Program-made: the position numbers and the translations under genes
Assembly: GCA_945870145.1 (NCBI GenBank)
Contig: CAMBQV010000001.1
Span: 495 to 64,494 of the forward strand
Length of the DNA stretch: 64,000 nt
Direction: 5' to 3'
Source: Akkermansia muciniphila
Lineage (GTDB): Bacteria; Verrucomicrobiota; Kiritimatiellia; RFP12; UBA1067
The notes under the pieces: generated by a model
Databases searched by the model: none
What the model was told of the DNA's origin: nothing
Seen by the model: only the letters and a program-made list of their open reading frames with translations
In this document: piece by piece, positions 36,693 to 53,150 of the stretch
Layout: each line of letters opens with the position of its first letter
Position numbering within the stretch: the stretch's first letter is position 1

Positions 36693-38228
36693 TTACTTTA
36701 ATGGCGCGGCTTTTTCGAGTTCGCGGATGAGGGGCAGGAGCTTGTCGTAGATCGCGGCGGTCTCGGACTGAGGCAGGCAGACATCGCTCACAGGCGAGAA
36801 GGCCTCGGTCATCTTGGCCAGCGGGACGCCGTCAGCATGAGCAGCCATCATCGCGCCACCCAAAGCCGCAGAGTCAGCAACCGCGATACTCTCCACGCGG
36901 GCTTGGAAGACGTTCGCCAGTGTCTGGCGGATACCAGGACTCTTTGATGCGCCGCCGGTCACACGAATACTCTTGAAGGTACCGATCCAGGCTGCATGGC
37001 TCCTGAGGGCCAAGGCCTGGCCTTCCACAGTCGCACGGATACGCACCTCTGGCTTGGCTGCGGCAAAGTCAAAGTTCGCACGCAATCCAGGCGTCAGCAC
37101 AGGCGGGGTGATCTCGGCCTCGAACCAGGGCAGGGCCAATTGTCCGTTATTCCCGGCGGGGGTCAGCTCAAAGGCTGTCTTATCAAAGAAACTCCATTCC
37201 GCACCGGCCTCCTTGCGCACACGGTCGCGGGCCAGCGAACCATTCTTGAAGCAAGCGAGACTCATGCAACCACCGGCAGGATTTCCGAAGACGTGGCCAC
37301 ACCCCTCAGGATCCGTGCTAAACCGCTCTAACGAGGAGAAGAAGGTATCGCTCGTCCCAAGGCTGATCACGGCAACGCCAGCGCTCCAAGCGCCTGTACC
37401 AACCAAACTGGCGGGATTGTCACCCGTCCAGACCGCCACAGGGATACCGGCCTTGAGACCGTATTTTTCAAAATAGGGCTGTAACTTCCCTGCCACGCCA
37501 CCAGCAACAGGAGGCAACTTCGAAAGCAAGCCAGGGGCGGTAAACTCCGTAATCGCCGAATCCCACGTGTTGGTCTTGAGATTCAGAAGATTCATGCCTG
37601 CGCCGTCACCACGATCAATCGGCGCGTCCTTGCCGATTAGCACCGAGCAGAGGAAGGAGCTGACCAAGTGGATACGGGCGGTCTGCGCATAGTGTTCAGG
37701 CTCCTGCTTGGCGAACTTACGGATCTGGGGACCTGTAAAACGCTCAATGGCGGGAGACCCTGTATCGGCCTGGAGGCGCGCCCCAAAAGCCTTGTCCAAT
37801 TCGCGGCACTCGGCAGAGGTCGAGCTGTCCATCCAGATCGGCGAGGTCGGACGCGAGAGCGTTCCCGTCAACTGTTCCGACAGCGACGCACTTGAATTCA
37901 ACGTGGCCACAACCGTCGTGAAGGTGCTATTGAGATAGACTGAACCATGCTGCTGGCCGTCACCACCAATGGCGGCAATCTTCTCCATGGCTAGGCCGCT
38001 CTTCTGCAAACGGGACAACATCAGATCCAAGGCCGCCAGCCACATCATCGGATCCGAATGCTTCACCAGTGGATCCGGATTCGCGAGAACTCCATCCGGG
38101 CAATTGAAATGGGGCAGATCCGCCTTGAAGTTGACGCTTGCGCTACCGACGATTTTTCCTGCTGAAGGGTCAATGACAAGTCCCTTCAAACTCTGTGTGC
38201 TACTATCAATCCCTAAATAATATGACAT
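36693..38228 (-). CDS. D-xylulose kinase, eukaryotic XKS1/XYLB-like FGGY kinase
   Basis: GIDSSTQSLKG, GGDGQQHGSVY, PIWMDSSTSAECRELD, ERFTGPQIRKF, GMNLL, WTGDNPASLVG, SLGTSDT and CFKNGSLARD blocks are collinear with human XYLB and yeast Xks1 rather than bacterial XylB. Confidence 0.8.
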   Translation of the reverse strand: MSYYLGIDSSTQSLKGLVIDPSAGKIVGSASVNFKADLPHFNCPDGVLANPDPLVKHSDPMMWLAALDLMLSRLQKSGLAMEKIAAIGGDGQQHGSVYLNSTFTTVVATLNSSASLSEQLTGTLSRPTSPIWMDSSTSAECRELDKAFGARLQADTGSPAIERFTGPQIRKFAKQEPEHYAQTARIHLVSSFLCSVLIGKDAPIDRGDGAGMNLLNLKTNTWDSAITEFTAPGLLSKLPPVAGGVAGKLQPYFEKYGLKAGIPVAVWTGDNPASLVGTGAWSAGVAVISLGTSDTFFSSLERFSTDPEGCGHVFGNPAGGCMSLACFKNGSLARDRVRKEAGAEWSFFDKTAFELTPAGNNGQLALPWFEAEITPPVLTPGLRANFDFAAAKPEVRIRATVEGQALALRSHAAWIGTFKSIRVTGGASKSPGIRQTLANVFQARVESIAVADSAALGGAMMAAHADGVPLAKMTEAFSPVSDVCLPQSETAAIYDKLLPLIRELEKAAPLK

Positions 38229-38304
38229 CTTCTAGCTCCTTTTTTTAATGAGAATATGAGTTTTTATTGAAAAATACAAGTTCAGAGTCAGGGGGTGTCT
38301 GGTT

Positions 38305-39768
38305 TTAACCAAGCTCCTCAAATTTTCCTGACACAACGAGGAACTTCTTAAACAACTCATCATACTGCTGCGCAACAACCGAATCCGGCTGGTGACGTTC
38401 CGCTGGCTGGGCCAACGTGTCCATGATTGAGAAGTCCTTCCAGACACCCGTGCCAATTCCCGCCAAGACCGCTGCACCCAGCGCGGCACATTGTTGCCCG
38501 ATCGTAGTACGCATGACTTCTACGTTATAGATATCCGCCGTGAGCTGTCGTGTGAAGGCCGCGTTGGCCCCGCCTCCCACAAGAATGAGGGGCTCTTTGA
38601 CCTCTGTCAGCTTTTTCAACTCGGTCAGCACATTGCGCAATCCCAGTGCGATGCCCTCTTGGGTGGCGCGCAAAAGATCCGCGCGCGTGTGGCGAAGTTC
38701 GAGTCCAACAAAGCCCCCTCTACCCTTAGGACCTGAAAGCGTAGGTATGAAGAAAACCCCGTTTGCTCCAATCGGCGAGGTCGCGGACTCCGCATCAATT
38801 TCTTTGTAGCTCAGTTCTTTGGCCATGATGCCCTTGACCCAGTTGAAGGCCGTACCTGCCGAAAAGATGGCCAATGCGGAGACATACTGTCCGGGCGCAA
38901 CATGGTCAAAGACATACGACCGTTTCACATCGTCTAGGAGCGGCTTGGAATCGGAGACTGCGATCCAGCTCGACGACCCGAGCGAATTATAGGCGCGTCC
39001 GTCACGGAAGGCTCCTGCGCCCAAACTCATGCACGAGTTGTCCACACCACCTGCAACCACTTTGACAGACTGCGACAAACCCAACGCCTGTGCAGCTTCA
39101 GACGTCAGCGTGCCGAGCACCTGCGTGGAGGGGACGATCTTCGGCAAGACCGATGGCGGCAGCCCAGTCGCCGCAACCAAGCGCTGCGAATAGGCGCGCG
39201 CCTTTAAATCATAGACGCCACTGCCCGAGGCATACGATTGATCCGTGGCACAGACGCCCGTCAGTTTGTAGTTGATGTAATCCTTGGTGCCGAGCACAAC
39301 CGCAATCTTCTGAAACATCTCAGGTTCATGTTCCTGAAACCACATCAGCTTGAAAGCGGAATAGAGCGCGGCAGGGAAGCCGTTCCCCGTCATGCGATAC
39401 CACTCGATTTCTGGGATAGCCTTAAATACACGCTTGGCCTGTTCACCTGCGCGAGCATCCGACCAGATCGGCGTGCGGGCCCTCAGTAACATGCCCGACT
39501 TGTCCAAGGGGACGACCCCGAGGCTATGGCCTGAGATACCAATGCCGACAATCTGTTGTTTCACTTCTGCGGTAAGCGTGTCCAAGAGTTTACGGGTACT
39601 ACTCAACGTCGCTTGCCACCACGCCTCGGGTTCCTGCTCATGAAAGCCAGGGGCTGGATAATAGGTCGGGTAACTGTCGAAACCATCAGCGATGCAGGCT
39701 CCCTTTTCATCATAGAGCGAGACCTTGATGCCACCTGTGCCAAAATCATACGCCAAGAGATAGTTCAT
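38305..39768 (-). CDS. FGGY family carbohydrate kinase (pentulose/fuculose/gluconate-kinase-like; substrate unresolved)
   Basis: MNYLLAYDFGTGGIKVSLYD N-terminal ATPase motif and ILVGGGANAAFTRQL C-terminal motif. Confidence 0.75.
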   Translation of the reverse strand: MNYLLAYDFGTGGIKVSLYDEKGACIADGFDSYPTYYPAPGFHEQEPEAWWQATLSSTRKLLDTLTAEVKQQIVGIGISGHSLGVVPLDKSGMLLRARTPIWSDARAGEQAKRVFKAIPEIEWYRMTGNGFPAALYSAFKLMWFQEHEPEMFQKIAVVLGTKDYINYKLTGVCATDQSYASGSGVYDLKARAYSQRLVAATGLPPSVLPKIVPSTQVLGTLTSEAAQALGLSQSVKVVAGGVDNSCMSLGAGAFRDGRAYNSLGSSSWIAVSDSKPLLDDVKRSYVFDHVAPGQYVSALAIFSAGTAFNWVKGIMAKELSYKEIDAESATSPIGANGVFFIPTLSGPKGRGGFVGLELRHTRADLLRATQEGIALGLRNVLTELKKLTEVKEPLILVGGGANAAFTRQLTADIYNVEVMRTTIGQQCAALGAAVLAGIGTGVWKDFSIMDTLAQPAERHQPDSVVAQQYDELFKKFLVVSGKFEELG

Positions 39769-39831: not shown

Positions 39832-41643
39832 TTACGTTGCCGGGATCAGGCGCAGGGCAGAGACGCGGATGTTTCTGCCCTCTGCGGTGGTCGGGCCGAA
39901 GACGAGTTGCTGCGCGCCGGGTTTCGGAAAGTCAATGACGCCCACGCGGGTGGTGCGGAAACGTGGCAAGGCACCGCCAAAGGCTTTGCGGGTTGCCCGC
40001 TCACCAGTGTCAATCAAGGGGAAGGTCACACGGGTGTCACCGCAGTTTATACCCCACTCCGAGTAATCGTCGTCAGCAGGGCAGGTGTACTCCACATCGA
40101 GGTAGAAGGAACCGGGTGCGACGGTATTGAAGTTCCACGTTACAGAAGGCTCGCTCCCTTTCCAGTCACCCACGCACTCCATGTGTTTCCAGTCGCCGAA
40201 CTTTTCCATCCAGTTGACAGCCTTTATTTCGCACCCCTTCAAGTTCGCCATGCCCATTTCCAGGGTATTGTGGCAGCCGTTCAGCACATACAAGTCACGG
40301 CGCGCATCGATGGGTCCTGACAGTTCCAATGTGATGACTGGAATGAGCGTATCAGGACGCAGCTTCGGAACGTGGAGGATGAGGAGTTTCTCTTCATGTA
40401 CGACCTTGATGATCTCCCCTTCCAGTGTCGCCCGCTTGACCTTGGACTGGAGTCCCGGCAAGATGAGCTTGCCGTTCGAGGGCCATTGGAATACATGCAT
40501 AAAAAGTGTGTTGCCGCGTGCGGTACACTCGCCCCAGGGGATCGGGCCGAAGGGGGTTGAGTCTGTACCGTGAATCGCGTCTTTATGCGCATGGACCCAC
40601 GTGCCGACCTCGCGCAGGATGCGAGCCGACTGCTCGGGGATGTGTCCCTGACCGTCAGGTCCGACATTCAGCATGTAGGTTCCGCCGCGGCTGACCACAC
40701 GGACCAGCCGTTCAGCGATCTCGCTGGGGCTTTTCCAGTTGCGGTCATACCAGGCGTAGCCCCAAGTGTCGTTGGCGGTGTCAGGTGTCTCCCACAGGCC
40801 GGGACGTGGGAGGCGCGGAATCTCCTGGTCGCCAAGCGTGTCGTAATCGCCAAGCCCGTTGCCGATGCGGCTGTTGGCGAGACACTGAGGCTGGAGTTTG
40901 TGGACAAGGTCGACGAGCATCTTGGACTCCTCGGGTGTGATGGGTCCTGGAGTGTCAAACCAGACGCCGGCAATCGGACCGTAGTTCTTCAGCAACTCCT
41001 CAAGCTGAGGAATCGCCTTGCCTTTGAGATAACGTTGGAAATCGGCTTCGCTCTCTTTAAAATCCCAGTCATTGCCGATGGCGTCGCGCTCATGCCAGTC
41101 CTGCGATTGCGAATAGTAGAAGCCCAGCCGCAGACCGCCCGTGCTACAGGCCTCAGCCAGCTCTTTCATGGGGTCACGCTTGAAGGGCGTGGCATCCACG
41201 ATATTGTAGGGGCTGGTAGCAGACTTGAACATGGCGAACCCCTCGTGGTGTTTCGCCGTGATCATGACGTGGCGCATCCCGGTGTCTTTCGCAAGCTGGA
41301 CCCACTCCTTGGCATCGAACCCAACGGGGTTGAAACGGGATGCCACCTTCTCGTATTCAGCGACCGGAATTCGAGCTCGTTTCATGATCCACTCGGCGAT
41401 TCCATACTGGGACGTGTTGTTCCATTTGTTTCCTAGTTCGGAATAAAGTCCCCAGTGGATAAACATCGCAAAGCGCGAATCCTTTAGCCACGCCCCGCGT
41501 ACGGTGTTGGTCATTGATTTCCCCGTGCCCCACATGGCTGTCGAGGTGCCATCCACGGAGATCACACGCTCAGCCGCGCAGGAAAAAATGCACGAGAAGA
41601 TCAGCAAGCCTGCTGTGGTTCGGAATAATAGATTATTGTTCAT
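39832..41643 (-). CDS. alpha-L-fucosidase, GH29, secreted, with C-terminal beta-sandwich domain
   Basis: Signal peptide; FAMFIHWGLYS, ITAKHHEGFAMF and GNDWDFKESE motifs typical of GH29; 603 aa. Confidence 0.8.
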   Translation of the reverse strand: MNNNLLFRTTAGLLIFSCIFSCAAERVISVDGTSTAMWGTGKSMTNTVRGAWLKDSRFAMFIHWGLYSELGNKWNNTSQYGIAEWIMKRARIPVAEYEKVASRFNPVGFDAKEWVQLAKDTGMRHVMITAKHHEGFAMFKSATSPYNIVDATPFKRDPMKELAEACSTGGLRLGFYYSQSQDWHERDAIGNDWDFKESEADFQRYLKGKAIPQLEELLKNYGPIAGVWFDTPGPITPEESKMLVDLVHKLQPQCLANSRIGNGLGDYDTLGDQEIPRLPRPGLWETPDTANDTWGYAWYDRNWKSPSEIAERLVRVVSRGGTYMLNVGPDGQGHIPEQSARILREVGTWVHAHKDAIHGTDSTPFGPIPWGECTARGNTLFMHVFQWPSNGKLILPGLQSKVKRATLEGEIIKVVHEEKLLILHVPKLRPDTLIPVITLELSGPIDARRDLYVLNGCHNTLEMGMANLKGCEIKAVNWMEKFGDWKHMECVGDWKGSEPSVTWNFNTVAPGSFYLDVEYTCPADDDYSEWGINCGDTRVTFPLIDTGERATRKAFGGALPRFRTTRVGVIDFPKPGAQQLVFGPTTAEGRNIRVSALRLIPAT

Positions 41644-41663: not shown

Positions 41664-44126
41664 CTATTGGGTTTTCAGTCGCCATGTGGAGGTCGGTTTG
41701 TTGTCCAGCGGCAGATTGTAGGTCAAGCTGTAGGTTCGGCTGTCATCGTCATAGTCGGCCTGCCAAAAATCATTTCCGTGGACGCTCTGATCGAGCCGAA
41801 CCTCTTTGCCATCCACCACTTCCGACAGCACGGCATCCTTGATCGATGCGAGCCCTTCAATGCGGAGTGGTACATATCCGAGGCCGCCTGCGATGGTAAC
41901 CTCGACAGCGGGCTTTTCGGCCTGGATCAAAATTGGGTAGCGGTTCAAGAGCTTTCCACCGCGCGCCGTCACACGCAGGTCGTTTCCGATCGCCTCGCGA
42001 TAGGTCGTCTTCCAGGATGACGGATTTTCGACGAGATGTTTTCTGAAATTTTCGTTCGGGCCATAGTAGTCATCAGCCGTGCGGTGAAGGGTAATCCACT
42101 CGACATCCATCTCGATCATGTCGCCGGGTTTGAAGGCCGTGACCTCGCGTGGCGGCACGAGGAGAAGGTCCACGTTCGAAATCTCCATTTTGGGGCCGTG
42201 CACAGGTACGGAGACTGGGAAGGAGACCGTCGGCTGCGTATAGATCTTGCCGTTGATCATGGCCGTATAGGAGCGGATCACAAAGGCGCGGTAGCCGGTT
42301 CCCCAGTCACGTCCATTGGTGTGTTTCGCGCCCGGGAATGCGCCCCACCAGGGACCCTTTCCTTCCAAGGCGAGACGGTCGATGAAGCACTGGCCGGCCT
42401 TCAGGCCTAAGGGGACGTCCTGCTCGGCGAGGAGTCCGTCCCGGTTGCCGTAGGCGACTTTGGGCGTGGCGTACTGGCCTGTCTTCCCCTGTCGATAGAA
42501 GGAGATGTTCGTGTTTGCGACAGGCACGTTAAATGTGTATCGGAAGTGCTGGAAGGTCCGCGCATAGTCGTCCGTGCGCAGGGTGTGAACTTCAGCCTTC
42601 ATTGCAACTTCACGCTGTGCGCCATAGAATCCTGAGTAACGGACATCGGTGAGGCAGGGACCCTGCGACAGATAGGCGGTCTTGAGATCTTTGAACGCGA
42701 GCTTGTTTCCCTCCGCATCCAGCATCTCGAACCAGTCGCCGCCCCAGCCGGCATCGGTCCAGTTCCACTTCTGGCCATTCAGGCCGTTTCGTGCCATGAG
42801 CATGCGCACGTCCGTCACGACCAGATTCACAAGACTCATGTCCATATCGAAGCAGATCGTCTCGCCCCAGCAGCCGATGGCCAGCTGGTCCCAGCGTCCG
42901 TTGCCGCCTTTGTTGTGATAGCCAATCAGGGACAACTGAGCATGACTCGAAGAGGGCAGCGTGCCATAGAAGCCATACGCCACGCGCAGGAGGTACTCCG
43001 TACGTCCCGGCTTTACGAGCAGGGAGGTGTAGGCCATCAGATAGGCGCCCATGGCCTCATAATGCCAGTTCTTACTCAGTTGCACAGGGATGCCCGTGGG
43101 CCGTCCCTCCTTGTCGCAGAGCATGGGGCAGAGGCCAGTGATATTGGCCGGCGAACGGAAGTCGAGCAGGAAGGGAATCTCTTTTGTCTGCGTCTCCGTA
43201 CTGTCAACCGTAATCAAAAAATCGTCATAGTCCCGGATGTCCGTATACCCAGCCTTGAACGTACGCTTGATTTTTGGCGCCTTTGCTACAAAGCAACTCT
43301 TTGTCGGCTCATACGCCACAGGGAAGACGTTGTTCGTCCCTGAGGTCACTTGAACAGAGAACTTTTCCGTAGAAATGACTCTCCCAGGATATGCATACGT
43401 CAGGGTCACCGCATTCGTTATCGAAGGAAGCCATACGTCAGCAAATGCTTTTTCACTCCGGCAGTCAACGCCGCTTCCCTTGAGCTGAAAAGCAATTTTT
43501 GCATTGTTCCATCCAGCTCCGTCTCCTACGGCCGGCGCGAGTGAAGCGGTCAGCGTCAGGGAGTCCGGCCAGGCGACCAGGTCCAAGTTTGCTTTGCAGT
43601 TCAACGTTTTTCCTGAAGCGGTTTGAAACTTGAGATCTTCAAACTCGAAATGTTGAACAAAGCGTCCTGATTCCCACATTTTTGCGAAGCCGAGTCGCCT
43701 GGGGTCAGGATCTGTGCCTGCTGCGCAACTGACCGCGCGATACTGCTCGCCGTTCACCTCGAGCATGAGGAGTAGCTCTGGCGTGGGGAGCCGGTATAAG
43801 GGATCTGTACTGGCCGTCAGCATGGATGTGTAACTCAAAGGCCCTGCCACTTCGGAGGAGAAGCCCGCGTTTACAAAGTTGGCCATGTCCAAGGTAAAAG
43901 CATAGCAGCTGGCCTGGATCGCTAGAATCTCCGGGCTCTTATCCGTCTTGTACTTGCGCCAGCCGTTCAGCCAGCAGGCGTATGTGTAGCCGGAGGCACG
44001 CAGGGGTTGTATTGCCGGAATAGGTTCCGCTTTCTTTTCGATCCCTTGCTTGCATCCGAAAAACAGGCCTGAGAAGGAACCCAGAATAACAATCATCACT
44101 ACAGTCATTAAATAGTTTTGCCTCAT
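41664..44126 (-). CDS. hypothetical 820-aa lipoprotein, no recognisable family (possible novel glycan-active enzyme)
   Basis: Lipoprotein signal MTVVMIVILGSFSGLFFGC. Full-length ORF with no overlap conflicts, embedded between the GH29 and GH95-like genes on the same strand. Confidence 0.55.
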   Translation of the reverse strand: MRQNYLMTVVMIVILGSFSGLFFGCKQGIEKKAEPIPAIQPLRASGYTYACWLNGWRKYKTDKSPEILAIQASCYAFTLDMANFVNAGFSSEVAGPLSYTSMLTASTDPLYRLPTPELLLMLEVNGEQYRAVSCAAGTDPDPRRLGFAKMWESGRFVQHFEFEDLKFQTASGKTLNCKANLDLVAWPDSLTLTASLAPAVGDGAGWNNAKIAFQLKGSGVDCRSEKAFADVWLPSITNAVTLTYAYPGRVISTEKFSVQVTSGTNNVFPVAYEPTKSCFVAKAPKIKRTFKAGYTDIRDYDDFLITVDSTETQTKEIPFLLDFRSPANITGLCPMLCDKEGRPTGIPVQLSKNWHYEAMGAYLMAYTSLLVKPGRTEYLLRVAYGFYGTLPSSSHAQLSLIGYHNKGGNGRWDQLAIGCWGETICFDMDMSLVNLVVTDVRMLMARNGLNGQKWNWTDAGWGGDWFEMLDAEGNKLAFKDLKTAYLSQGPCLTDVRYSGFYGAQREVAMKAEVHTLRTDDYARTFQHFRYTFNVPVANTNISFYRQGKTGQYATPKVAYGNRDGLLAEQDVPLGLKAGQCFIDRLALEGKGPWWGAFPGAKHTNGRDWGTGYRAFVIRSYTAMINGKIYTQPTVSFPVSVPVHGPKMEISNVDLLLVPPREVTAFKPGDMIEMDVEWITLHRTADDYYGPNENFRKHLVENPSSWKTTYREAIGNDLRVTARGGKLLNRYPILIQAEKPAVEVTIAGGLGYVPLRIEGLASIKDAVLSEVVDGKEVRLDQSVHGNDFWQADYDDDSRTYSLTYNLPLDNKPTSTWRLKTQ

Positions 44127-44182
44127 TTTTAACCTTCCTTCTCCAGTGGCTCTCTGCGCGGATCATATCCCGACCAGAGATC

Positions 44183-47023
44183 TTAAATGGTTTGAGGCAC
44201 CTTAGCCTCCTTTAAAGAATGCATAGCTTCTTCCATGCCCATGACGATGACATCTTTTCTCCGCGCTTCTGGCGTGACCTTCAGTTCAGCCAGTTTCCCA
44301 TTTTGTACCCGGCCCTCGACAATGGTGTTCAACGGCGCGTGCAGCTTGAAATTCACATCCCACTCCTTCGGCCAGGCTGGCAAAAGACGGATGGTACCTC
44401 CGTCACACAGCATCAGCATGCGCTGAAGAGCGATGAGGGTGACGGAACCGTGGTCTTGATCCGGCGTCCAGTCGAAGTTCGGGCCCCAGAATGCAGGGAA
44501 GCGGGGCTCGACAGCCGGCCGGCCGGCCGGAGCTCTGTCGGTTGCGTTGATCACCACATAATCCTTGGCTTCCTGCGTCAAGCCGAGCATCGCGGCCTGG
44601 ATCGGGTCCTGCGTCCAGCCGCCTGTTCGCTTCACAAGCCTCCGGCGCCAAGTTTCGAGCGCACTTTTCATATCGGGTTTACCTACCGTATACGCCCGAT
44701 ACGGAAAGACCGCGTACAACTCGGGATTCTCGGAGTTTCTAAGATCCGAATAAACATGTGCAGGCTTGATCCATTTTTTGCCGTCTTCCTCGCCCAGGGG
44801 GATTTCCGGCAGTTCAGAACGGAACCGCTTCCAGCGTGCGCGCTGGTCCGGAACGGCCAGTGTTTCAGGAAGTTCGAGGAGTCGATCCAAGACCGTCATG
44901 AGTCCGGCAACGACAGGGAGGGGATTCTCGGCCGTATGCCAGGTTTCAAGACTTTGCGCTGGAGAGAAGAGCACCTTGCCCTGTGCGGTGCGTTTGTGGT
45001 GCTGGTCGTAGAACTTCACCACCTCATCGGCGAGCGGGATGAGCGTGCTGGTGACAAAGGCTCTGTCCTGAGTATGCGCATAGAAGTCAAGCATCATCAT
45101 GGAAAGCTCAAGGCCGCTGTCCCAGTAGTAACGGATGTAGGCATTGTTGGGATAAAAGCCTTTGTTGGCATAGCCGAAGTCGTGGTTGGCGTTGAGGCCC
45201 CAAGGATAGATCGTTTCAGAGCAGAAGATCCCCTCGTGGTTAAAGTACGTTTGGGTGCGCTCCTTCAGCATCGGCAGGGCGTCCCGGTACATCCGCCAAA
45301 GCGGCTCCATCTGGTCAAAGTCGCCGGAATAAAGCATCGACCAGTACGGCAAGCGCGTATTCTGAAACCAATAGCAGCCACCCCATTGACGGGCATCCGG
45401 ACCCAATTTCTGCACAGTTCCGTCAGCTTGGCGGTGGACATAATCCACGGTAAAAAGCGAACCGTTAAACTTGATGGGGGAGTTACCCCGCCCGGCGCAG
45501 GCCTGGATAAAGCGTTGCAGCACGTAGGCTCGCGTGACAACAAACGCCTCGTTTGGTTTTCCCACCGGACCACATCCGGCAATCCGCTTTCCATCTAGAT
45601 ACATTTCCAGACGCCCTGTCTCTGCGTCCACAGCCACCGCAACATGATGCCACTGGCCCGCTTTCAGGCAATCAGGAACAGAGAAGCGCCTCTCTCCGAT
45701 AATGAGCCGCAGGCTGTTACCAGGGTGGGTGTCCAACAGGAAGCCGTTATCTTTGCCCGGCGTAGAATTGTCAATGATTCGTGTACCAGGGTTATCGGAC
45801 GTCGGGTTGACCCACGCCTCCACCGTGAGTTGCTTTAAACTCGTCCAGATTGAGGATTTTCCGATCTCGCTATACAGCACCGGAGTGCCGCCATGCAGGA
45901 TCTCCGCCGGGGCCAATCCGCTGTCTGCCGCTTGAGTGCCCGCAAGCGTCTTGATTTCAGCCTCGGTCAGCGCGCGCTTTAAAATGGTCACTCTGCCGAA
46001 CTTGCCCGTGAAGCGATTGCCTCCATGGGTATCGCCTCCGATCCAGAAATTATTGTTATTGGTCGGGATCATAGAGGGCGTTAATCCATTTATGGCGCCC
46101 TTACAGGAGGAGATAAAGATCCAACTGCGGTTCCAGAAACTTGCCCAGTAGGCTTCGTGCTTCGCGCGAGTCTCTTTGACGGAAAGCCCCTCGACGCCCG
46201 CACGTTGGCCTTCTAACTTTTTCAGCCACTCCTCGGGAGTCGCTGTCTGGGCTGCCAAGGCGTGTACACGCAGGCGCAGGTTCTGCAACGGCTTTTTAGT
46301 AACGAGTGTCTTCGCGTCTTTGCTTGTTAGCCCCTCCCCGGAAATCAGGCAGCCGAAGGTTCTGTTCAGAAGCGGATCTGGATACTTCCCGATCAACTGC
46401 TCGAGATGCTGGTTCTTGAGGGTCTCATTAAAGATGCTGTGCGTATTACGCTGGTACCAACGGATTGAGTCCCCTTCCGCGGGCAGCACCACATCGGGTT
46501 CCGCCGCGCCGTACCGCTTGGCGTCAGCCGTGCGCCATACGTCCAGCGACACTTCTGCTGTGAACGCCGTTGAACGCTCGATCTCAATGTTGATAACCGG
46601 ATTATTGGCGTCGACCCAGAAGAGGATTCGGCCCGACTGTCCGCTCGCCGTAGAGCGAAAGGAGATGGAGGCTGATTTGAGATCCAACTCCTGCCGGAAG
46701 TCGGCTCTATCCGCCGTGAAGTCACTCTCAAGACGAATACGCACCCGGCCCAGTTTCAGAAGCTCCTGGGTTCCGCTCCAGCTATCGCTCTTAGAGAGAT
46801 AGAAGACAAGGTCACCCGTGGGCTCCAGCCAGACATTCGCTGCCAGATCACCGTTGCCGATCGGCATGGACCCATGACAGTCCTTGCTCGGTGAATCCCA
46901 GATAACGTTGTAGGCATCGAGCTGAGGAGATGAGGCAATCGCTTCTCCCAACCACCCGTTCAAAACTGCAAAAAAACAGCCGAAAGTCCCTAATGTGAAT
47001 CTACATGTTGAAAAATCTTTCAC
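44183..47023 (-). CDS. putative glycoside hydrolase with GH95-like N-terminal domain, inserted LamG-like (ConA-like) domain and (alpha/alpha)6-like C-terminal region
   Basis: SMPIGNGDLAANVW resembles the GH95 N-terminal motif. Residues about 300-480 carry WHHVAVAVDAETGRLEMYLDGKRIAG, a LamG_3 signature. GTG start at 47023 with RBS-like GAGGGG. Confidence 0.55.
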   Translation of the reverse strand: MKDFSTCRFTLGTFGCFFAVLNGWLGEAIASSPQLDAYNVIWDSPSKDCHGSMPIGNGDLAANVWLEPTGDLVFYLSKSDSWSGTQELLKLGRVRIRLESDFTADRADFRQELDLKSASISFRSTASGQSGRILFWVDANNPVINIEIERSTAFTAEVSLDVWRTADAKRYGAAEPDVVLPAEGDSIRWYQRNTHSIFNETLKNQHLEQLIGKYPDPLLNRTFGCLISGEGLTSKDAKTLVTKKPLQNLRLRVHALAAQTATPEEWLKKLEGQRAGVEGLSVKETRAKHEAYWASFWNRSWIFISSCKGAINGLTPSMIPTNNNNFWIGGDTHGGNRFTGKFGRVTILKRALTEAEIKTLAGTQAADSGLAPAEILHGGTPVLYSEIGKSSIWTSLKQLTVEAWVNPTSDNPGTRIIDNSTPGKDNGFLLDTHPGNSLRLIIGERRFSVPDCLKAGQWHHVAVAVDAETGRLEMYLDGKRIAGCGPVGKPNEAFVVTRAYVLQRFIQACAGRGNSPIKFNGSLFTVDYVHRQADGTVQKLGPDARQWGGCYWFQNTRLPYWSMLYSGDFDQMEPLWRMYRDALPMLKERTQTYFNHEGIFCSETIYPWGLNANHDFGYANKGFYPNNAYIRYYWDSGLELSMMMLDFYAHTQDRAFVTSTLIPLADEVVKFYDQHHKRTAQGKVLFSPAQSLETWHTAENPLPVVAGLMTVLDRLLELPETLAVPDQRARWKRFRSELPEIPLGEEDGKKWIKPAHVYSDLRNSENPELYAVFPYRAYTVGKPDMKSALETWRRRLVKRTGGWTQDPIQAAMLGLTQEAKDYVVINATDRAPAGRPAVEPRFPAFWGPNFDWTPDQDHGSVTLIALQRMLMLCDGGTIRLLPAWPKEWDVNFKLHAPLNTIVEGRVQNGKLAELKVTPEARRKDVIVMGMEEAMHSLKEAKVPQTI

Positions 47024-47103: not shown

Positions 47104-49902
47104 CTAACGCTTCAGTTTGGACCACACCTTGACGAGTAGCACCTTTTCTTTCCCTATATTAAACGGCCCCGGCGAGGGTGTTTCCGCATTCCTCTTCTCG
47201 CCGAAGTAGTCGGTGTCAAGCCGATAAGGCGTTCCATCTGGCTGCTCGAAAGGCGCATCCGAACGGGTTGCCTTGCCGAGCAGGGCGCTGGTGATGAGGG
47301 TTCGTTTGACCTTTTCCTGCCAAGAGGGGTCCACGTTCATCTCCAGCCACCAGCCATCGGCTTTCTCAACAAGTAGGATGTCTGGCTCAAAGGTTTCCGC
47401 AACAACCGCGTCCTTGTCTTGTACTGAAGGTTTGGCTCCTGCAAGAAAAACATTGCCGGTTGCCGTGATGGCGAACGTGTGTTCGTTGTAAACAGAGAGC
47501 TTTTTGGGATGGCTGAACAGATTGTTGTAGAACCGGTCGTCATGCTGATCAACCCCCACGCCGACCCCGCCCCACTGATCCATCAAGGCTTTACGGGACT
47601 CGGCAGTCACCACTTCGAAATCAGCGACAAAATCTTTCCAGGCCTCGCCGCCACAATTGATCCGAAGGGCAAAGGGCTTCGATGGCTCACGCTCTTGGGT
47701 TCCGACGACCTCAATCCCGGCAATGCTTGGAAATTCACGCTCCCGGATAAACCCGATGCGCAGCACCCCATCCTCAACCCGCACCTTCTCCTCGACAAGA
47801 TCAAGCGCCCGATTCTTGCCAGCTACTGCTATGAGATCCAACCCGTTCGTCAGGGTTCGTCCTTGGAGCGTAATCCCGAAGCGGCGTTGTCCTGGCTTGT
47901 TATAGAAGGGTTCGTTGAATTTGAGTGTCACGCAATAGAGCCCTTTGGGGACATCCAGACGGTAGCCTTCGCTTCCGTAACGAATGGTCTGATAGACTGG
48001 GTCCTGTTCTGTTTTCTCAACAGGCTCAGTAAAGAGCGCCTTCTGTCCGCCTAGTGCACCGAAGTTGCTTGATGCTAGTTTAGTACTCACGATATCTGTA
48101 CTGTGCGGTTTAAAAACAGGTGTTTTTCGCGCCGTGAGATCCGCCCAGATATCTTGTGTGCCGCGAATCAGATTATGCACATAAGCACCACCACCACTCG
48201 CATCCAATACGCCGCGATTGGAGAGGAGAATATTGTTGTCGATGAGCATCGGGCCATGATTCATCTCGAACATGAAGTCATTGCTGTTGTCATGCAACAG
48301 GTTGCCGGTCACGCGCGCGCCCTGCGCCATCCAGTCGAGCCAGAGACCGCCCCAGTGTCCGCAGCGGTAAATATGGTTTCGGCTGATGACAGTATCCACT
48401 GCGCCATGCAGCTTGATGCCAGCGGTTTCGCAACCTCCGTAGGGATGGTGCTGCGTGATGTCATGGATTTCGTTCCCTGTGATCAGTGAAAAACTACAGC
48501 CCAGGCTCCCGTTGATTCCACCTTGGTCGCAGTTGTAAATATGGTTGCCTCGTACAACATGGCTCCCAATGTTCTCGCGCATCCAGCCCTTTTCCAGGCC
48601 AAGACGGATCGTTCGGTTATAGTTGAAGGTGTTATCAAACTCGTCACCGTGCTTTCCGAGCGTCACGCCGACACACGTGGAAAAACGGACCGTGTTGCTC
48701 TCGATGATCCAGCCCTTTGACCAGTGCGTGCCGATCAAACCGATCTGCTCAGCGGTCGGCGGTGACCACGGCGTGGCAGCCTGCTCCAAGGTAAAGCCCC
48801 TGACCGTAATGTAATTCCGTCCCGGCTTGTCGGGATAAAAGACCGTCTTGCGCACATTGACCTCCACGAGCGCCTCGTTCGGGTCAACACCCTTGAACTG
48901 CGCCCAGAGGGTGGTGGTGTCCGTGTCGACCTTGGCAAACCAGTAGCCAGGATCGTTCGCACTGTTCGCCGGCGCGCTCGGTTCGGCCCTGCAAACCAGG
49001 ACAATCCTCTGCTTTCCGGCAACCTTTGTGATCGGCGTACGGAAGGATTGGAAATGAGTCCATTCCGCGGTCACGGTCGGACGGCAGATCCCCAGCACAA
49101 CGCCTTCGGGACTCTCTCGGCGGATCTCCAAAAAACCCCCGCCGACCGGTGAAGCGAGCGAGAGCGTCAGGAACTCCGTGCCGTTTCCACAGTCCACGTC
49201 ATCATAAGCTAGCCAGTTCCCGTTCTCTAGGTGTCCTACACAGCTCTTGCCCTCCGGCAACTCAAGAAACTTAACCTCCCCTTTCTTGGACGAAAACCGA
49301 GACGCCTGAACAACCCCCGATCCTTCCGGTTGAAGGGACACCACATTCAGCAGTTCCTGTTCGTCCTTGTCTGTGGCACCCGTGAGTGCGGACTTCACAA
49401 CAACGGACTTGCGGGCCGCCTCTTTGAGCCAGATGCCATTCACATACACAGCACCGGTGTGATAGGGCTGCCGGGTTTCATACCAATCCCCCTTGATCAG
49501 GTCGCGGCACGGATTGAAATCGCCGAAGAACCTGTTCGGGAGCGTGACACACCAGGTATCGTCCTCTACCTTCTTCCATCCTGTCACGCGCTCAGAGCCC
49601 TTGATGGTGACCTTTTCGCCAGGGGCCGCCTGATAAACAATACGCTTGTCATCAGATGTTCCGCCGCGAGGCGGATTGACGCGCTCGCGGTAAACCCCTT
49701 CGTGTATGGTGATCACATCCCCGGGTTGCGCCAGGGCCGATGCCGCGGAAATCGTCTTCAAGGGTGCCGATGCCCTCCCGTCATTGCCATCGCTGCCCGT
49801 GACTGATACGTGGTAGGTCTGTATACCTTCGGCTCCTTCTGTTGCACAGACGAACAGTGATAGGCTGGCTAGCACAGCCAGATTAAATAGCAGTCTCTTC
49901 AT
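47104..49902 (-). CDS. secreted right-handed parallel beta-helix protein (pectate-lyase-like fold) with C-terminal malectin-like carbohydrate-binding domain
   Basis: Signal peptide; N-terminal SVTGSDGNDGRASAPLKTISAASALAQPGDVITIHEGVY (beta-helix cap). Repeated NxxxxGxxxHN-type coils (GNHIYNCDQGGINGS, GNEIHDI, RNHIYRCGHWGG). C-terminal YRLDVPKGLYCVTLKFNEPFYNKPGQRRFGITLQG is malectin-like. Confidence 0.6.
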   Translation of the reverse strand: MKRLLFNLAVLASLSLFVCATEGAEGIQTYHVSVTGSDGNDGRASAPLKTISAASALAQPGDVITIHEGVYRERVNPPRGGTSDDKRIVYQAAPGEKVTIKGSERVTGWKKVEDDTWCVTLPNRFFGDFNPCRDLIKGDWYETRQPYHTGAVYVNGIWLKEAARKSVVVKSALTGATDKDEQELLNVVSLQPEGSGVVQASRFSSKKGEVKFLELPEGKSCVGHLENGNWLAYDDVDCGNGTEFLTLSLASPVGGGFLEIRRESPEGVVLGICRPTVTAEWTHFQSFRTPITKVAGKQRIVLVCRAEPSAPANSANDPGYWFAKVDTDTTTLWAQFKGVDPNEALVEVNVRKTVFYPDKPGRNYITVRGFTLEQAATPWSPPTAEQIGLIGTHWSKGWIIESNTVRFSTCVGVTLGKHGDEFDNTFNYNRTIRLGLEKGWMRENIGSHVVRGNHIYNCDQGGINGSLGCSFSLITGNEIHDITQHHPYGGCETAGIKLHGAVDTVISRNHIYRCGHWGGLWLDWMAQGARVTGNLLHDNSNDFMFEMNHGPMLIDNNILLSNRGVLDASGGGAYVHNLIRGTQDIWADLTARKTPVFKPHSTDIVSTKLASSNFGALGGQKALFTEPVEKTEQDPVYQTIRYGSEGYRLDVPKGLYCVTLKFNEPFYNKPGQRRFGITLQGRTLTNGLDLIAVAGKNRALDLVEEKVRVEDGVLRIGFIREREFPSIAGIEVVGTQEREPSKPFALRINCGGEAWKDFVADFEVVTAESRKALMDQWGGVGVGVDQHDDRFYNNLFSHPKKLSVYNEHTFAITATGNVFLAGAKPSVQDKDAVVAETFEPDILLVEKADGWWLEMNVDPSWQEKVKRTLITSALLGKATRSDAPFEQPDGTPYRLDTDYFGEKRNAETPSPGPFNIGKEKVLLVKVWSKLKR

Positions 49903-52900: not shown

Positions 52901-52999
52901 ATCCCACGTGTAGTCTGTTGCCCGGATAGTCGAACTCACTGACAGAATAAAGAGTGAGCTAAGCGCCATACATTTCGTCTTTTGATTTCTTACGTTCAT
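49946..52999 (-). CDS. giant secreted autotransporter-associated beta-strand (PATR) repeat protein
   Basis: Internal duplication TDYTWDASGGAPLNDGGGAWVSSGGANWFNGSTYGAWGNTTADKAIIG / KAYTWDADGVAPLNDGAGSWVASGGANWLNGSTYGAWGNTITDVAIIG. Repeated GGGTLxL and GTLTL units. GGGAGGA RBS then ATG at 52999 (MNVRNQKTKCMALSSLFILS signal). The track ORF starts at 53149. Confidence 0.7.
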   Translation of the reverse strand: MNVRNQKTKCMALSSLFILSVSSTIRATDYTWDASGGAPLNDGGGAWVSSGGANWFNGSTYGAWGNTTADKAIIGVGSGAGGTIWQSGTNILNKLTFNAPGSGSYTLSQYSPGANVLSFGGTAPAIEVNSSALIDQNQWEDDDNIAFAGDTLTVNIASGQTLTTRRMKGANANSTAFVTGGGTLRLLWDYWNNKFLNYSIASGSVLHLEGDRQTPPGTHTISGSGTLRISGGRFAGSNGGIVNLSLGSGGVIDIQSGSELYNGEWQKIRLLQNLADMNVDGKFDLRDGNAVYVDALTGSGIITKAQQWNNVTVTVGVDNGSGTFSGTIVTNAAALSTVMNLVKTGSGMQTLSGLCQYAGATTINNGVLRLATGASLNPATVVSIDYPGKLDLDSSINQTVKQLMLDGVPKAAGTWGSTSSAADNKSDMYFQGTGVLTVQTGPKAYTWDADGVAPLNDGAGSWVASGGANWLNGSTYGAWGNTITDVAIIGANSGAAGSITQSGTITLNGLVFNAPGSGNYTIDQSAVAGVNTLSFGGTGPSIIVNTSATIAQAEGGDDRMELASGNLTINIASGQTLTTRKLAVANPNYSVIVTGGGTLNLLYEGYNKFMEGIYGNGSATLFVKGNSTVKLAQNQHCISDYVRVDIAVGSTFDLNSKAEGVGYLSGAGSVSNLPSGSSLSLSMPSYFSGAIFSGTINGPGELYIAGAGASVQVLSGANTYAGGTRIASGTLKLGAAGVIPDGSGKGDLSFDPISPNTATFDLAGNNETINGLSSSGTGSSVVNNTISGVATLTVGNDNDTTTFGGAIKNTAGTLALTKVGTGTLVLSGTNNTYSGLTTISGGMLCVSNTAGSATGSGSVLITSLGTLTGNGTVSGIVTNSGTLSPGSLIGTLTTGGQVWNTGGKLTCEMNDATGAAGTGYDTMTVNGVLDLFAATTCTVKLVTLNGAVPGQPANFTSGRSYTWTLAVASGGIIGFSSDRFVVDKSALAGPHGDYKVETNSNALLLKYSPVGTMISFL

Positions 53000-53103
53000 A
53001 ATCCTCCCTTTTTCGTTTCGGAATACCCGCTGCATTCTAGCCAGCATAAATAGCCCCATACGACTTTCTGTCAGTATCGCATAACCGTTCCTCTTTGAAT
53101 ACA

Positions 53104-53150
53104 GACAATTTGTGCAAATATCGGACAATTTGTGCAATTGGACGTGCAAA
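53104..53150. promoter_or_regulatory. direct repeats GACAATTTGTGCAA x2 (20-bp periodicity) plus partial third, in divergent promoter between PATR gene and XylR-like regulator
   Basis: 53104-53117 and 53124-53137 are identical 14-mers; GACGTGCAAA follows at 53141-53150. Direct-repeat half-sites are typical of AraC/XylR operators. Confidence 0.4.

What the first reader, a model, noticed from the sequence alone, without database searches (positions are those of the whole stretch)
41664..44126. 820-aa lipoprotein with no recognisable family embedded between GH29 and GH95-like genes
It has a clean lipobox (LGSFSGLFFGC) and a full-length ORF with no internal stops. It is tightly packed between two glycosidase genes on the same strand (20-bp and 56-bp gaps). 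I could not match any conserved glycosidase, lyase or esterase motif by eye. It is a prime candidate for an undescribed glycan-active family.
Basis: inference. Interest (0 to 1): 0.55.

Follow-up and report, generated by a model that had tools for sequence, protein, structure and literature searches.

The report
Unclassified secreted enzyme in fucan-degradation operons
This gene encodes a lipid-anchored, all-beta secreted protein from a large, highly conserved and so far unannotated family that sits beside or is fused to fucosidases, acetyl-esterases and sulfatases, so it is most likely a missing enzyme for breaking down sulfated, acetylated fucose-rich polysaccharides such as fucoidan.

Summary
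An 820-aa ORF lies at 41664-44126 on the minus strand. It has a Shine-Dalgarno-like site, a signal peptide and a lipobox Cys25. It sits 20 bp from a GH29 gene and 56 bp from a DUF5703_N/LamG/GH95-like gene. It has no hit in Pfam, NCBIfam or PDB sequences.

It belongs to a large family: at least 1,153 clusters at 50% identity and at least 371 species genomes. Most are Planctomycetota, Verrucomicrobiota, Kiritimatiellota and Lentisphaerota. A distant branch reaches Hydrogenedentes, Armatimonadota and organisms with type IX secretion. Every named member is labelled "hypothetical" or "LamG domain-containing".

The AlphaFold model (pLDDT 84) is all-beta. Its central domain is a galactose-mutarotase-like supersandwich that carries the invariant polar residues: K352, N353, H355, E422, D439, R441, D464, R517, D520, R523 and Y687.

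The commonest directly adjacent genes are GH29, CE7-like esterases and sulfatases. Fusions exist to esterases, a GH29-like domain and carbohydrate-binding modules.

Best reading: a secreted glycan-cleaving enzyme for acetylated, sulfated fucose-rich polysaccharides. Hydrolase or lyase is unresolved. I could not test whether the family is CAZy GH187 or the Luteolibacter Fct114 fucoidanase, so "undescribed" is unproven.

The parts
41664..44126 (-). Target gene: 820-aa secreted lipoprotein of an unannotated, conserved family (called T here)
   Evidence: ORF and translation. No Pfam, NCBIfam or PDB hit. More than 1,100 homologous clusters.
44133..44144 (-). Shine-Dalgarno-like GGAGAAGGAAGG; the AAGGAAGG part ends 6 nt upstream of the ATG
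   Evidence: Read directly from the sequence.
44052..44126 (-). Signal peptide with lipobox (residues 1-25, ...LFFG-C25)
   Evidence: Sequence. A lipobox is present at the same place in the 14 closest homologues; the more distant ones have no lipobox but hydrophobic, signal-peptide-like N-termini read by eye. Low pLDDT for residues 1-37.
43278..43994 (-). N-terminal beta-sandwich region (residues ~45-283). It is the more variable part. In the ~1,000-aa relatives a Laminin_G_3 domain lies between the N-terminal region and the core that starts near residue 190-196
   Evidence: AF2 secondary structure. Two-stretch matches and LamG positions in the ~1,000-aa variants.
42057..43229 (-). Central galactose-mutarotase-like beta-supersandwich (residues ~300-690), the putative catalytic domain. 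It carries Q349, K352, N353, W354, H355, E422, D439, R441, D464, R517, D520, R523 and Y687-Y688
   Evidence: AF2 models. Foldseek hits to PL26, GH36 N-domain, YidC P1, OpgG/OpgD and aldose epimerases. Conservation across subfamilies.
41985..42053 (-). Two short helices (residues 692-714) that link the central and C-terminal domains
   Evidence: AF2 secondary structure.
41670..41975 (-). C-terminal beta-sandwich (residues 718-819), conserved across the whole family
   Evidence: AF2 secondary structure. The alignment extends to the C-terminus at 27-32% identity.
39832..41643 (-). GH29 alpha-L-fucosidase, 20 bp downstream on the same strand; the most frequent direct neighbour of the family
   Evidence: Pfam PF01120 E 2e-77. 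Neighbour censuses.
44183..47023 (-). DUF5703_N + Laminin_G_3 + GH95-catalytic-like protein, 56 bp upstream
   Evidence: Pfam. The same gene is upstream on the independent contig L088. DUF5703-type neighbours occur in 5 loci.
47104..49902 (-). Multidomain beta-helix protein (GH120 insertion domain, CBM6, Beta_helix, malectin) on the same strand
   Evidence: Pfam.
49946..53149 (-). PATR (autotransporter-repeat) protein, first gene of the same-strand run
   Evidence: Pfam and NCBIfam.
36693..39768 (-). Two tandem FGGY sugar kinases (xylulokinase/fuculokinase-like) downstream of GH29; probably catabolism of the released sugar
   Evidence: Pfam and NCBIfam. An FGGY kinase also lies downstream of T in L007.
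53132..54310 (+). Divergent periplasmic-binding-protein/AraC hybrid regulator. The same regulator type sits upstream of the orthologous cluster in L001
   Evidence: Pfam. L001 gene table.

Best explanation
The gene encodes a secreted, outer-surface or periplasm-anchored lipoprotein. I think it is a carbohydrate-active enzyme of a family that has no model in Pfam-A or NCBIfam and no relative among PDB sequences. The mature protein is built only of beta domains: an N-terminal sandwich region, a central galactose-mutarotase-like supersandwich, and a C-terminal sandwich. The central domain carries a strictly conserved set of acidic, basic and aromatic residues and is the probable active site. The most likely function is cleavage of glycosidic bonds in O-acetylated, sulfated, fucose-rich polysaccharides (fucoidan-like glycans). 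It would act in sequence with a CE7-like deacetylase, sulfatases and the adjacent GH29 exo-fucosidase. Released sugars would then feed the downstream FGGY kinases. I favour hydrolysis, with E422 and one of D439, D464 or D520 as the acid/base pair, over beta-elimination. Shown: the gene, the signal and lipobox, the family's size and conservation, the fold class, and the neighbour and fusion statistics. Inferred: catalysis, the substrate and the chemical mechanism.
For: 1. Export: signal peptide plus lipobox, conserved in close relatives.
2. Conservation typical of an enzyme: about 50% identity over roughly 780 residues between Kiritimatiellota-like and Planctomycetota members. Q349, K352, N353, H355, E422, D439, R441 and Y687 are invariant, and D464, R517, D520 and R523 are at least 90% conserved, in a 32-sequence alignment that reaches 21-29% identity. 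They are also retained in a member from a type-IX-secretion organism.
3. Fold: confident all-beta model (pLDDT 83.7, pTM 0.85). The central domain matches galactose-mutarotase-like supersandwiches. In some of the matched proteins this fold is the catalytic domain, by my recollection of OpgG/OpgD (GH186), the PL26 rhamnogalacturonan lyase and the aldose epimerases.
4. Genomic association: of 67 directly adjacent same-strand neighbours in 80 loci from different species, the top Pfam families are Alpha_L_fucos (10), DLH/AXE1 esterase (9) and Sulfatase (8), followed by GH28, GH95 and beta-helix. GH29 and the esterase peak at gene offset -1/+1. 53 of 82 loci have at least one of the three within 10 kb. 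The same association appears in Lentisphaerota/Kiritimatiellota-labelled, Verrucomicrobiota and Planctomycetota loci and independently in a locus with a hybrid two-component regulator and type-IX-secretion tails.
5. Fusions: to DLH/AXE1, BD-FAE/Abhydrolase_3 and GDSL esterases, to a GH29-like domain, and to NPCBM, F5/8-type-C, CBM_4_9 and LamG modules.
6. The partner esterase resembles CE7 acetyl-xylan esterase/cephalosporin-C deacetylase.
7. The literature says fucoidan breakdown combines GH29, GH95, GH141, CE7 and S1 sulfatases with endo-fucanases (PMC11685898). The Luteolibacter fucoidanase works on deacetylated fucoidan (PMC8997789, PMC6017418).
Against: There is no biochemical evidence and no recognisable catalytic motif of any known GH or PL family. 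Foldseek similarities are weak (TM 0.35-0.42, RMSD 5-17 A) and are to a fold that is often non-catalytic, as in the GH36 and GH38 accessory domains and YidC P1 (by my recollection of those proteins). The most conserved segment (residues ~385-460) is modelled with only 54-77 pLDDT, so the active-site geometry is unknown. Many family members, especially in Planctomycetota, Hydrogenedentes and the distant subfamily, sit in uninformative neighbourhoods. Sulfatases are spread evenly through these loci rather than peaking next to the gene. Some neighbours point to other glycans: GH28 and GH106 (pectin/rhamnose type), a GH63-like protein in a freshwater Akkermansiaceae MAG, and PF05426/heparinase-like proteins in Planctomycetota loci. 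The substrate may therefore be broader than fucoidan. Several members come from MAGs whose names suggest lake or soil surveys.
Confidence: 0.55

Rival explanations
1. It is a polysaccharide lyase. The supersandwich domain would cleave next to a uronic acid (for example glucuronic-acid branches or a glucuronomannan-type backbone in fucoidans) by beta-elimination. K352, H355 or Y687 would act as base/acid and R441, R517 or R523 would neutralise the carboxylate.
For: The best Foldseek hit of the central domain is the PL26 exo-rhamnogalacturonan lyase (E 5.5e-5). The invariant set is rich in Lys, His, Arg and Tyr. Heparinase II/III-like and PF05426 'alginate lyase'-like genes occur in several Planctomycetota loci.
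Against: The PL26 match is weak (TMq 0.35, RMSD 15-17 A), with E-values similar to those of the GH36 N-domain and YidC P1. No GH88 or GH105 unsaturated-uronyl hydrolase and no PL family is listed among the 25 commonest Pfam families of the 67 directly adjacent neighbours. Strictly invariant E422 and D439, plus D464 and D520, fit a hydrolase equally well.
Confidence: 0.17
2. It is a non-catalytic surface glycan-binding or scaffold lipoprotein (SGBP-like) that captures fucose-rich polysaccharide for the neighbouring enzymes.
For: It is lipid-anchored and all-beta. The matched fold is frequently an accessory, non-catalytic domain (my recollection of GH36, GH38 and YidC P1; hits). Frequent CBM-type additions such as LamG and NPCBM show a glycan-binding context.
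Against: Binding proteins usually diverge fast. Here about 50% identity holds across phyla, and a fixed constellation of Asp, Glu, His, Lys and Arg persists at 25-30% identity. Members already carry separate CBMs, which would be redundant for a pure binder. Repeated fusion to esterases and to a GH29-like domain is typical of catalytic modules.
Confidence: 0.12
3. It is not a new family. It is a member of CAZy GH187 (endo-alpha-1,3-L-fucanase Fun187A of Wenyingzhuangia aestuarii) and/or the family of the unclassified Luteolibacter algae H18 fucoidanase. This is a rival on novelty, not on function, so its confidence overlaps the other readings and the figures are not meant to sum to 1.
For: GH187 is described as dominated by beta-sheets, and homologues are reported in fucoidan-degrading Planctomycetota, some outside PULs (PMC12534559, PMC11685898). 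Fun187A is 101 kDa, which is compatible with a ~775-residue core plus a secretion tail. The target family reaches organisms with type-IX-secretion tails in a sulfatase/GH29 locus. Luteolibacter MAGs encode a 1,010-1,011-aa LamG variant with an esterase nearby, and the H18 enzyme needs deacetylated substrate. The gene name fct114 and the size of about 114 kDa are my recollection only.
Against: No sequence of either enzyme was available, and no source names any of the hundreds of members listed as a fucanase or fucoidanase. The NCBIfam 2026 and Pfam 2025 libraries have no model that hits it.
Confidence: 0.35
4. It is a non-hydrolytic sugar-converting enzyme (mutarotase or epimerase-like) that acts on released fucose or oligosaccharides.
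For: The central domain matches the aldose-1-epimerase fold. The gene sits next to GH29 and sugar kinases.
Against: There is no Pfam Aldose_epim hit. An 820-aa lipid-anchored extracytoplasmic protein fused to esterases and CBMs is not how mutarotases are built. The epimerase hits are among the weakest (probability 0.2-0.97, TM 0.16-0.34).
Confidence: 0.04

Closest known systems
CAZy GH187 (Fun187A endo-alpha-1,3-L-fucanase) and the unclassified Luteolibacter algae H18 fucoidanase
   Same: Same predicted biological niche: depolymerisation of sulfated fucans or fucoidan. GH187 is reported to be beta-sheet dominated and present in Planctomycetota. The H18 enzyme needs prior deacetylation, which matches the esterase adjacency and fusions seen here.
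   Different: Not comparable here, because no sequences or structures were available. No member of the target family carries such a name in any source. Identity, or the lack of it, is the main open question.
GH186 (OpgG/OpgD beta-1,2-glucanases)
   Same: A galactose-mutarotase-like beta-supersandwich followed by a smaller beta-sandwich. In GH186 the supersandwich is the catalytic domain (my recollection). Foldseek TM is 0.36-0.42 with RMSD 5-6 A over about 300 columns.
   Different: No sequence similarity (no PDB HMM hit at E<=10) and 6-8% identity in the structural alignments. The target has about 250 extra N-terminal residues and a different genomic context (osmoregulated periplasmic glucan synthesis versus sulfatase/fucosidase loci).
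PL26 exo-rhamnogalacturonan lyase (PDB 5xqo) and, by recollection, PL4
   Same: A large (~900 aa) multidomain all-beta carbohydrate-cleaving enzyme. It is the best Foldseek E-value for the central domain (5.5e-5).
   Different: Poor superposition (TMq 0.35, RMSD 15-17 A), 9% identity and no sequence-profile hit. Nothing here shows uronate chemistry.
GH174 endo-1,3-fucanases
   Same: Fucoidan context, beta-rich fold and presence in Planctomycetota.
   Different: GH174 enzymes are smaller (54-80 kDa). A GH174 structure has been published, yet neither PDB sequence searches nor the top 50 Foldseek hits returned any fucanase.
Accessory supersandwich domains of GH36, GH38 and GH95, and the YidC P1 domain
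   Same: Same fold class.
   Different: By my recollection, in those proteins the domain is non-catalytic and attached to a TIM-barrel, (alpha/alpha)6 or membrane domain. The target has no such partner domain and concentrates its invariant polar residues in the supersandwich.

Membership tests
Any Pfam-A / NCBIfam family | Profile-HMM match above or near the curated threshold | tested here: not met
   0 families at E<=0.01 in both libraries. Precomputed Pfam is '-' for nearly all homologues except where domains are fused.
Bacterial lipoprotein (Lol/Lgt substrate) | N-terminal signal peptide ending in a lipobox with an invariant Cys | tested here: met
   MRQNYLMTVVMIVILGSFSGLFFG-C25. The -3 position is Phe (non-classical). 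A box at the same position occurs in the 14 closest homologues. No dedicated predictor such as SignalP or LipoP was available.
GH174 endo-1,3-fucanase | Sequence or structural similarity to the solved GH174 enzyme | tested here: not met
   No PDB sequence hit at E<=10 with the sequence or the profile. No fucanase in the top 50 Foldseek hits of either model. Caveat: that the GH174 structure is in the PDB copy is inferred from the citation in PMC12534559.
GH187 endo-1,3-fucanase | Significant sequence similarity to the Fun187A catalytic domain | not testable with these tools
Luteolibacter algae H18 fucoidanase family | Sequence similarity to the cloned fucoidanase; activity on deacetylated Cladosiphon fucoidan | not testable with these tools
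   A search with a Luteolibacter MAG member returned only 'LamG domain-containing' or 'hypothetical' names.
GH186 (OpgG/OpgD) | Sequence homology to OpgG/OpgD, including the catalytic Asp (D361 in OpgG, D388 in OpgD) | tested here: not met
   No HMM hit to the OpgG/OpgD chains in the PDB. There is only fold-level resemblance: TM 0.36-0.42 and 6-8% identity.
PL26 / PL4 rhamnogalacturonan lyases | Sequence homology and a superimposable multidomain architecture | tested here: not met
   No sequence hit. Foldseek E 5.5e-5 but TMq 0.35 and RMSD 15-17 A.
Aldose 1-epimerase (galactose mutarotase) | Pfam Aldose_epim match and a cytoplasmic enzyme of about 300-350 aa | tested here: not met
   No Pfam hit. 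The protein is exported and 820 aa. Foldseek hits to epimerases are weak.
Carbohydrate-active enzyme of a polysaccharide-utilisation gene cluster (generic) | Conserved co-location or fusion with known CAZymes, export signal, and demonstrated catalysis | tested here: inconclusive
   Co-location, fusion and export are met. Catalysis cannot be tested computationally.

The most novel reading that the evidence does not exclude
The protein founds a glycoside hydrolase (or lyase) family that is not yet in CAZy. Its catalytic centre would lie in a galactose-mutarotase-like beta-supersandwich. It would be specialised on deacetylated, sulfated fucose-rich polysaccharides. It is widespread (more than 1,100 clusters at 50% identity) in PVC bacteria and reaches Hydrogenedentes, Armatimonadota and type-IX-secretion organisms. 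It would be a missing step in fucoidan and FCSP turnover.
Probability: 0.35. Interest if true: 0.7.

Novelty: new variant of a known kind. Interest (0 to 1): 0.52.

Why it matters
Fucoidan and related fucose-containing sulfated polysaccharides are among the most recalcitrant marine glycans and matter for carbon sequestration. The papers read here say their degradation pathways are still largely uncharacterised and that endo-acting enzymes are the bottleneck (PMC11685898, PMC12534559). This family is large and very well conserved, and it is tied by adjacency and fusion to the GH29, deacetylase and sulfatase core. It has no hit in Pfam-A (2025 copy) or NCBIfam (June 2026 release), the only annotation libraries I could test. 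That makes it an obvious expression target. It could add an enzyme class to fucoidan-degradation models, improve CAZyme annotation of PVC genomes, and supply a tool for making defined fuco-oligosaccharides. If it turns out to be GH187 or the Luteolibacter enzyme, the value is smaller: a fold assignment, candidate catalytic residues and a much wider phyletic range for a barely characterised family.

Tried and rejected
- PDB sequence searches with the single sequence and with the 47-sequence profile gave nothing at E<=10.
- Re-predicting the central domain alone (residues 290-700) to sharpen Foldseek gave the same fold class and no specific family. TM stayed at or below 0.42.
- Looked for uronate-catabolism neighbours to support a lyase. 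The Rhodopirellula-type upstream genes are a PfkB kinase, an SDR, a methyltransferase and DUF3419. These are lineage synteny, not a uronate pathway.
- Other recurrent neighbour clusters appear, from reading their representative sequences, to be housekeeping genes (trigger factor, ClpP/ClpX, RibF, malate dehydrogenase, transaldolase, acetolactate synthase). I take this as lineage synteny inside marine Akkermansiaceae.
- Contexts of three distant-subfamily members were uninformative.
- tblastn against the plasmid collection gave no match.
- BLASTP of the target against all other window ORFs found no paralogue and no relation to the DUF5703 neighbour.
- Literature: the GH187 paper is not held. 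No supplements are held for the two Nature Communications papers. The Akkermansiaceae study used dbCAN v12, so the absence of GH187 there says nothing. A search on PL44-47 terms returned only noise. The Thalassobacterium paper and the 'Bait-and-Switch' preprint were irrelevant.
- The promoter/terminator scan of the operon was not above shuffled controls, so the operon structure is inferred only from the short same-strand gaps.
- The third Foldseek job (viral library) was not used because I judged it uninformative.
Full report
OBSERVATION

The ORF is real and lies on the minus strand at 41664-44126. It encodes 820 aa from an ATG start with no internal stop. An AAGGAAGG Shine-Dalgarno-like sequence ends 6 nt upstream of the ATG.

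The N-terminus is MRQNYLMTVVMIVILGSFSGLFFG-C25, a signal peptide ending in a lipobox. The -3 residue is Phe, which is non-classical. Even so, the 14 closest homologues have an equivalent [L/F/C]-x-[G/A]-C box at the same place. The more distant members lack a lipobox and start with hydrophobic, signal-peptide-like N-termini, which I read by eye without a predictor. Export therefore looks general in the family, and lipid anchoring is specific to this clade.

Downstream is a GH29 alpha-L-fucosidase (PF01120, E 2e-77). Upstream is a DUF5703_N + Laminin_G_3 + weak GH95-catalytic-like protein.

The identical protein, with the same upstream gene, also occurs on an independent ENA metagenome contig.

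NO KNOWN FAMILY BY SEQUENCE

Pfam-A and NCBIfam give no hit at E<=0.01. The PDB sequence library gives none at E<=10, either with the single protein or with a 47-sequence profile.

THE FAMILY

- A word-indexed search found at least 870 homologues. The top 120 were full-length matches at 50-89% identity.
- An exhaustive profile search of 1.84 billion cluster representatives found 1,153 with E<=1e-3 and 516 with E<=1e-30.
- A scan of one genome per species confirmed 371 places that encode a relative. Of the 80 best, nearly all are labelled Planctomycetota, Verrucomicrobiota, Kiritimatiellota or Lentisphaerota; the exceptions are one 'Pelolinea' contig and a few unclassified MAGs. Labelled genera include Rhodopirellula, Aporhodopirellula, Fuerstiella, Rubritalea, Luteolibacter, Lentimonas, Thalassobacterium and Pontiella, and higher taxa include Pirellulales, Phycisphaerae, Sedimentisphaerales, Akkermansiaceae, Opitutales, Puniceicoccaceae and Victivallales.
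- A second subfamily at 27-32% identity keeps the full-length architecture. It occurs in Hydrogenedentes, Armatimonadota, Sedimentisphaerales and Verrucomicrobia.
- Two long members carry type-IX-secretion sorting tails, so the family also reaches Bacteroidota-like organisms.
- Every name any source gives is 'hypothetical protein', 'LamG domain-containing protein' or similar.

STRUCTURE

AlphaFold2 with the family alignment gives a confident model (pLDDT 83.7, pTM 0.85) that is almost entirely beta. Its parts are:

- an N-terminal sandwich region, residues ~45-283;
- a central domain, residues ~300-690;
- two short helices;
- a C-terminal sandwich, residues 718-819.

Foldseek against the PDB finds no full-length relative. 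The best hits are partial matches to galactose-mutarotase-like supersandwiches: the GH38 Ams1 beta-domains, OpgG/OpgD, aldose epimerases, YidC P1 and GH36 N-domains.

I re-predicted the central domain alone (pLDDT 75). The top hits were then the PL26 exo-rhamnogalacturonan lyase (E 5.5e-5, TMq 0.35), GH36 N-domains, YidC P1 and OpgG/MdoD (TM 0.36-0.42, RMSD 5-6 A over about 300 columns). The fold class is therefore clear, but no specific family is indicated.

From memory, not tested here: this fold is catalytic in GH186, PL4, PL26 and the mutarotases, and it is accessory in GH36, GH38 and GH95.

CONSERVATION

Between phyla the protein keeps about 50% identity over roughly 780 residues. A 32-sequence alignment spans both subfamilies at 21-29% identity to its first member. 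In it, the invariant polar residues are Q349, K352, N353, H355, E422, D439, R441 and Y687. At 90% conservation or better are D338, H395, D464, R517, D520, R523 and D669. The type-IX-secretion member keeps the same set except D413.

All of these residues lie in the central domain. The segment that holds many of them (residues 385-460) is the least confident part of the model, at pLDDT 54-77.

GENOMIC CONTEXT

In the window the gene lies in a run of same-strand genes separated by 20-190 bp:

- a PATR protein;
- a GH120-insertion/CBM6/beta-helix/malectin protein;
- the DUF5703/GH95-like protein;
- the target;
- GH29;
- two FGGY kinases;
- a VTT/DedA protein.

A divergent PBP/AraC regulator sits upstream. 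The window also holds a sulfatase, pyruvate formate-lyase and PFOR, which suggests an anaerobe.

The 89%-identical orthologue, on a 6.1-Mb chromosome, lies in the order regulator, GH106, CE7-like esterase, target, GH29.

I called ORFs in 82 loci and clustered them. The results were:

- A GH29 gene, a DLH-type esterase or a sulfatase is directly adjacent on the same strand, or fused, in 29 of 82 loci. At least one lies within 10 kb in 53 of 82.
- GH29 and the esterase peak at gene offset -1/+1. Each is found 8 times among the 68 genes at offset -1, against 0-3 times at any offset from 2 to 6. Sulfatases are spread evenly across offsets.
- An unbiased Pfam census of the 67 directly adjacent same-strand neighbours gives Alpha_L_fucos 10, DLH 9 (6 of these proteins also match AXE1), Sulfatase 8, GH28 3, GH95_cat 3, Beta_helix 3, DUF5703_N 2, GH106 1 and BD-FAE 1. 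No GH88, GH105 or PL family appears among the 25 commonest families listed.
- A cassette of sulfatase, sulfatase, GH29, target and sometimes esterase recurs in Pirellulales and Sedimentisphaerales MAGs. One Pirellulales locus adds GH95, two more GH29 genes, a beta-helix protein and heparinase-like genes.
- The locus of one of the two type-IX-secretion members independently contains a BD-FAE esterase, a hybrid two-component regulator, five sulfatase genes (one of them a 154-aa fragment) and two GH29 genes around the family member.

The partner esterase resembles CE7 acetyl-xylan esterases and cephalosporin-C deacetylases.

FUSIONS

Family modules are fused to:

- N-terminal DLH/AXE1 esterases, about 1,420 aa;
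- DLH/AXE1 + NPCBM + LamG + family module + BD-FAE, 2,101 aa;
- a GDSL esterase and a GH29-like domain;
- further esterase/LamG/NPCBM combinations;
- F5/8-type-C, CBM_4_9, CHB_HEX_C and PATR modules.

In the common ~1,000-aa Verrucomicrobiota variants a LamG domain lies between the N-terminal region and the core that starts near residue 190-196.

INTERPRETATION

Five things together make a catalytic carbohydrate-active role the best explanation:

- export;
- enzyme-like conservation;
- a fold that can be catalytic;
- specific adjacency to GH29 and a deacetylase;
- many independent fusions to esterases, CBMs and a GH29-like domain.

The partner set (GH29, GH95, beta-helix, CE7, S1 sulfatases) is the one the literature assigns to fucoidan degradation (PMC11685898). 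The likely substrate is therefore an acetylated, sulfated fucose-rich polysaccharide. It is probably not only brown-algal fucoidan, because some members come from MAGs whose names suggest lake and soil surveys and from apparent anaerobes.

The repeated physical coupling to acetyl-esterases suggests that deacetylation precedes cleavage.

Whether the enzyme is endo- or exo-acting, and whether it is a hydrolase or a lyase, is not resolved. I favour hydrolysis for two reasons: the carboxylates are invariant, and no unsaturated-uronate hydrolases appear among the commonest neighbours.

COMPARISON WITH KNOWN FAMILIES

- GH174, which is beta-rich and has a published structure, is excluded as far as the PDB searches go.
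- GH186, PL26 and the epimerases share only the fold class.
- I could not test GH187. Fun187A is 101 kDa, is described as 'dominated by beta-sheets', and has homologues in fucoidan-degrading Planctomycetota.
- I could not test the unclassified Luteolibacter algae H18 fucoidanase either. It acts on deacetylated fucoidan alongside a dedicated fucoidan deacetylase.
- I recall the H18 gene as fct114, encoding a protein of about 114 kDa. That would fit the 1,010-1,011-aa LamG variant found in Luteolibacter MAGs. This is a recollection, not a test.
- I put the chance that the family coincides with one of these two at about one third.

VERDICT

This is an ordinary kind of thing, an unclassified enzyme in a polysaccharide-utilisation operon. 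It is an unusually strong and widespread candidate with clear experiments to follow.

Noticed in passing
window 26838-26937 (-): ZMP/ZTP riboswitch (pfl motif, RF01750, 55 bits against a gathering score of 39). It lies immediately upstream of the pyruvate formate-lyase gene 24558-26804 (-). A 238-aa ORF follows at 23841-24557, possibly the activating enzyme; it was not annotated.
   Followed up: no
window 44183-47023 (-): The upstream neighbour combines DUF5703_N, Laminin_G_3 and a weak GH95-catalytic match (E 6.5e-11). It is itself an uncharacterised GH95-like architecture. Its start is ambiguous: 946 aa from a GTG here, against the 894-aa gene called on contig L088. Similar proteins lie near the target family in Pontiella loci L021 and L022 and in L038 and L065.
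   Followed up: partly
window 47104-49902 (-): A 932-aa protein with two GH120 insertion-domain matches, CBM6, a right-handed beta-helix and a malectin domain. It is probably another uncharacterised glycosidase or lyase of the same operon.
   Followed up: no
window 57055-60015 (-): A 986-aa protein whose only Pfam hit is the hydrazine-synthase alpha-subunit middle domain (HZS_alpha, E 2.9e-34). The window also encodes pyruvate formate-lyase and PFOR, which suggests a fermentative anaerobe. Function unknown.
   Followed up: no
window 36693-39768 (-): Two tandem FGGY kinases downstream of GH29. The first scores just under the xylulokinase equivalog cut-off (354 against 380 bits). The second is more divergent. 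Locus L007 has an SDR, a DeoC/LacD aldolase and an FGGY kinase downstream of the target family, which hints at a linked deoxy-sugar catabolic route.
   Followed up: partly
L007, L021, L073, L080: Several genomes carry two paralogues of the family in one locus. L021 has a divergent pair. L007 has an 830-aa copy plus a 1,062-aa copy. L073 has a 2,123-aa esterase fusion plus a 1,394-aa copy. L080 has 1,142-aa and 1,137-aa copies.
   Followed up: no
L086 (ENA ERZ25039514 contig_71825), gene 10001-14065: A family member of 1,354 aa with an F5/8-type-C module and a type-IX-secretion tail. It sits in a locus with a hybrid two-component regulator, five sulfatase genes (one a 154-aa fragment), two GH29 genes, GHL15 proteins and a BD-FAE esterase. 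This is a Bacteroidota-style sulfated-fucan locus.
   Followed up: partly
window 49946-53149 (-) and 53132-54310 (+): The PATR-repeat ORF, called from a TTG start, overlaps the divergent regulator gene by 18 bp. The TTG start is probably over-extended.
   Followed up: no
L033-L035 (Aporhodopirellula/Rhodopirellula), L018: A PF05426 'alginate lyase'-like protein (386 aa, or 724 aa in L018) recurs next to the GH29-target pair in Planctomycetota. In L018 it is followed by a heparinase II/III-like protein.
   Followed up: partly
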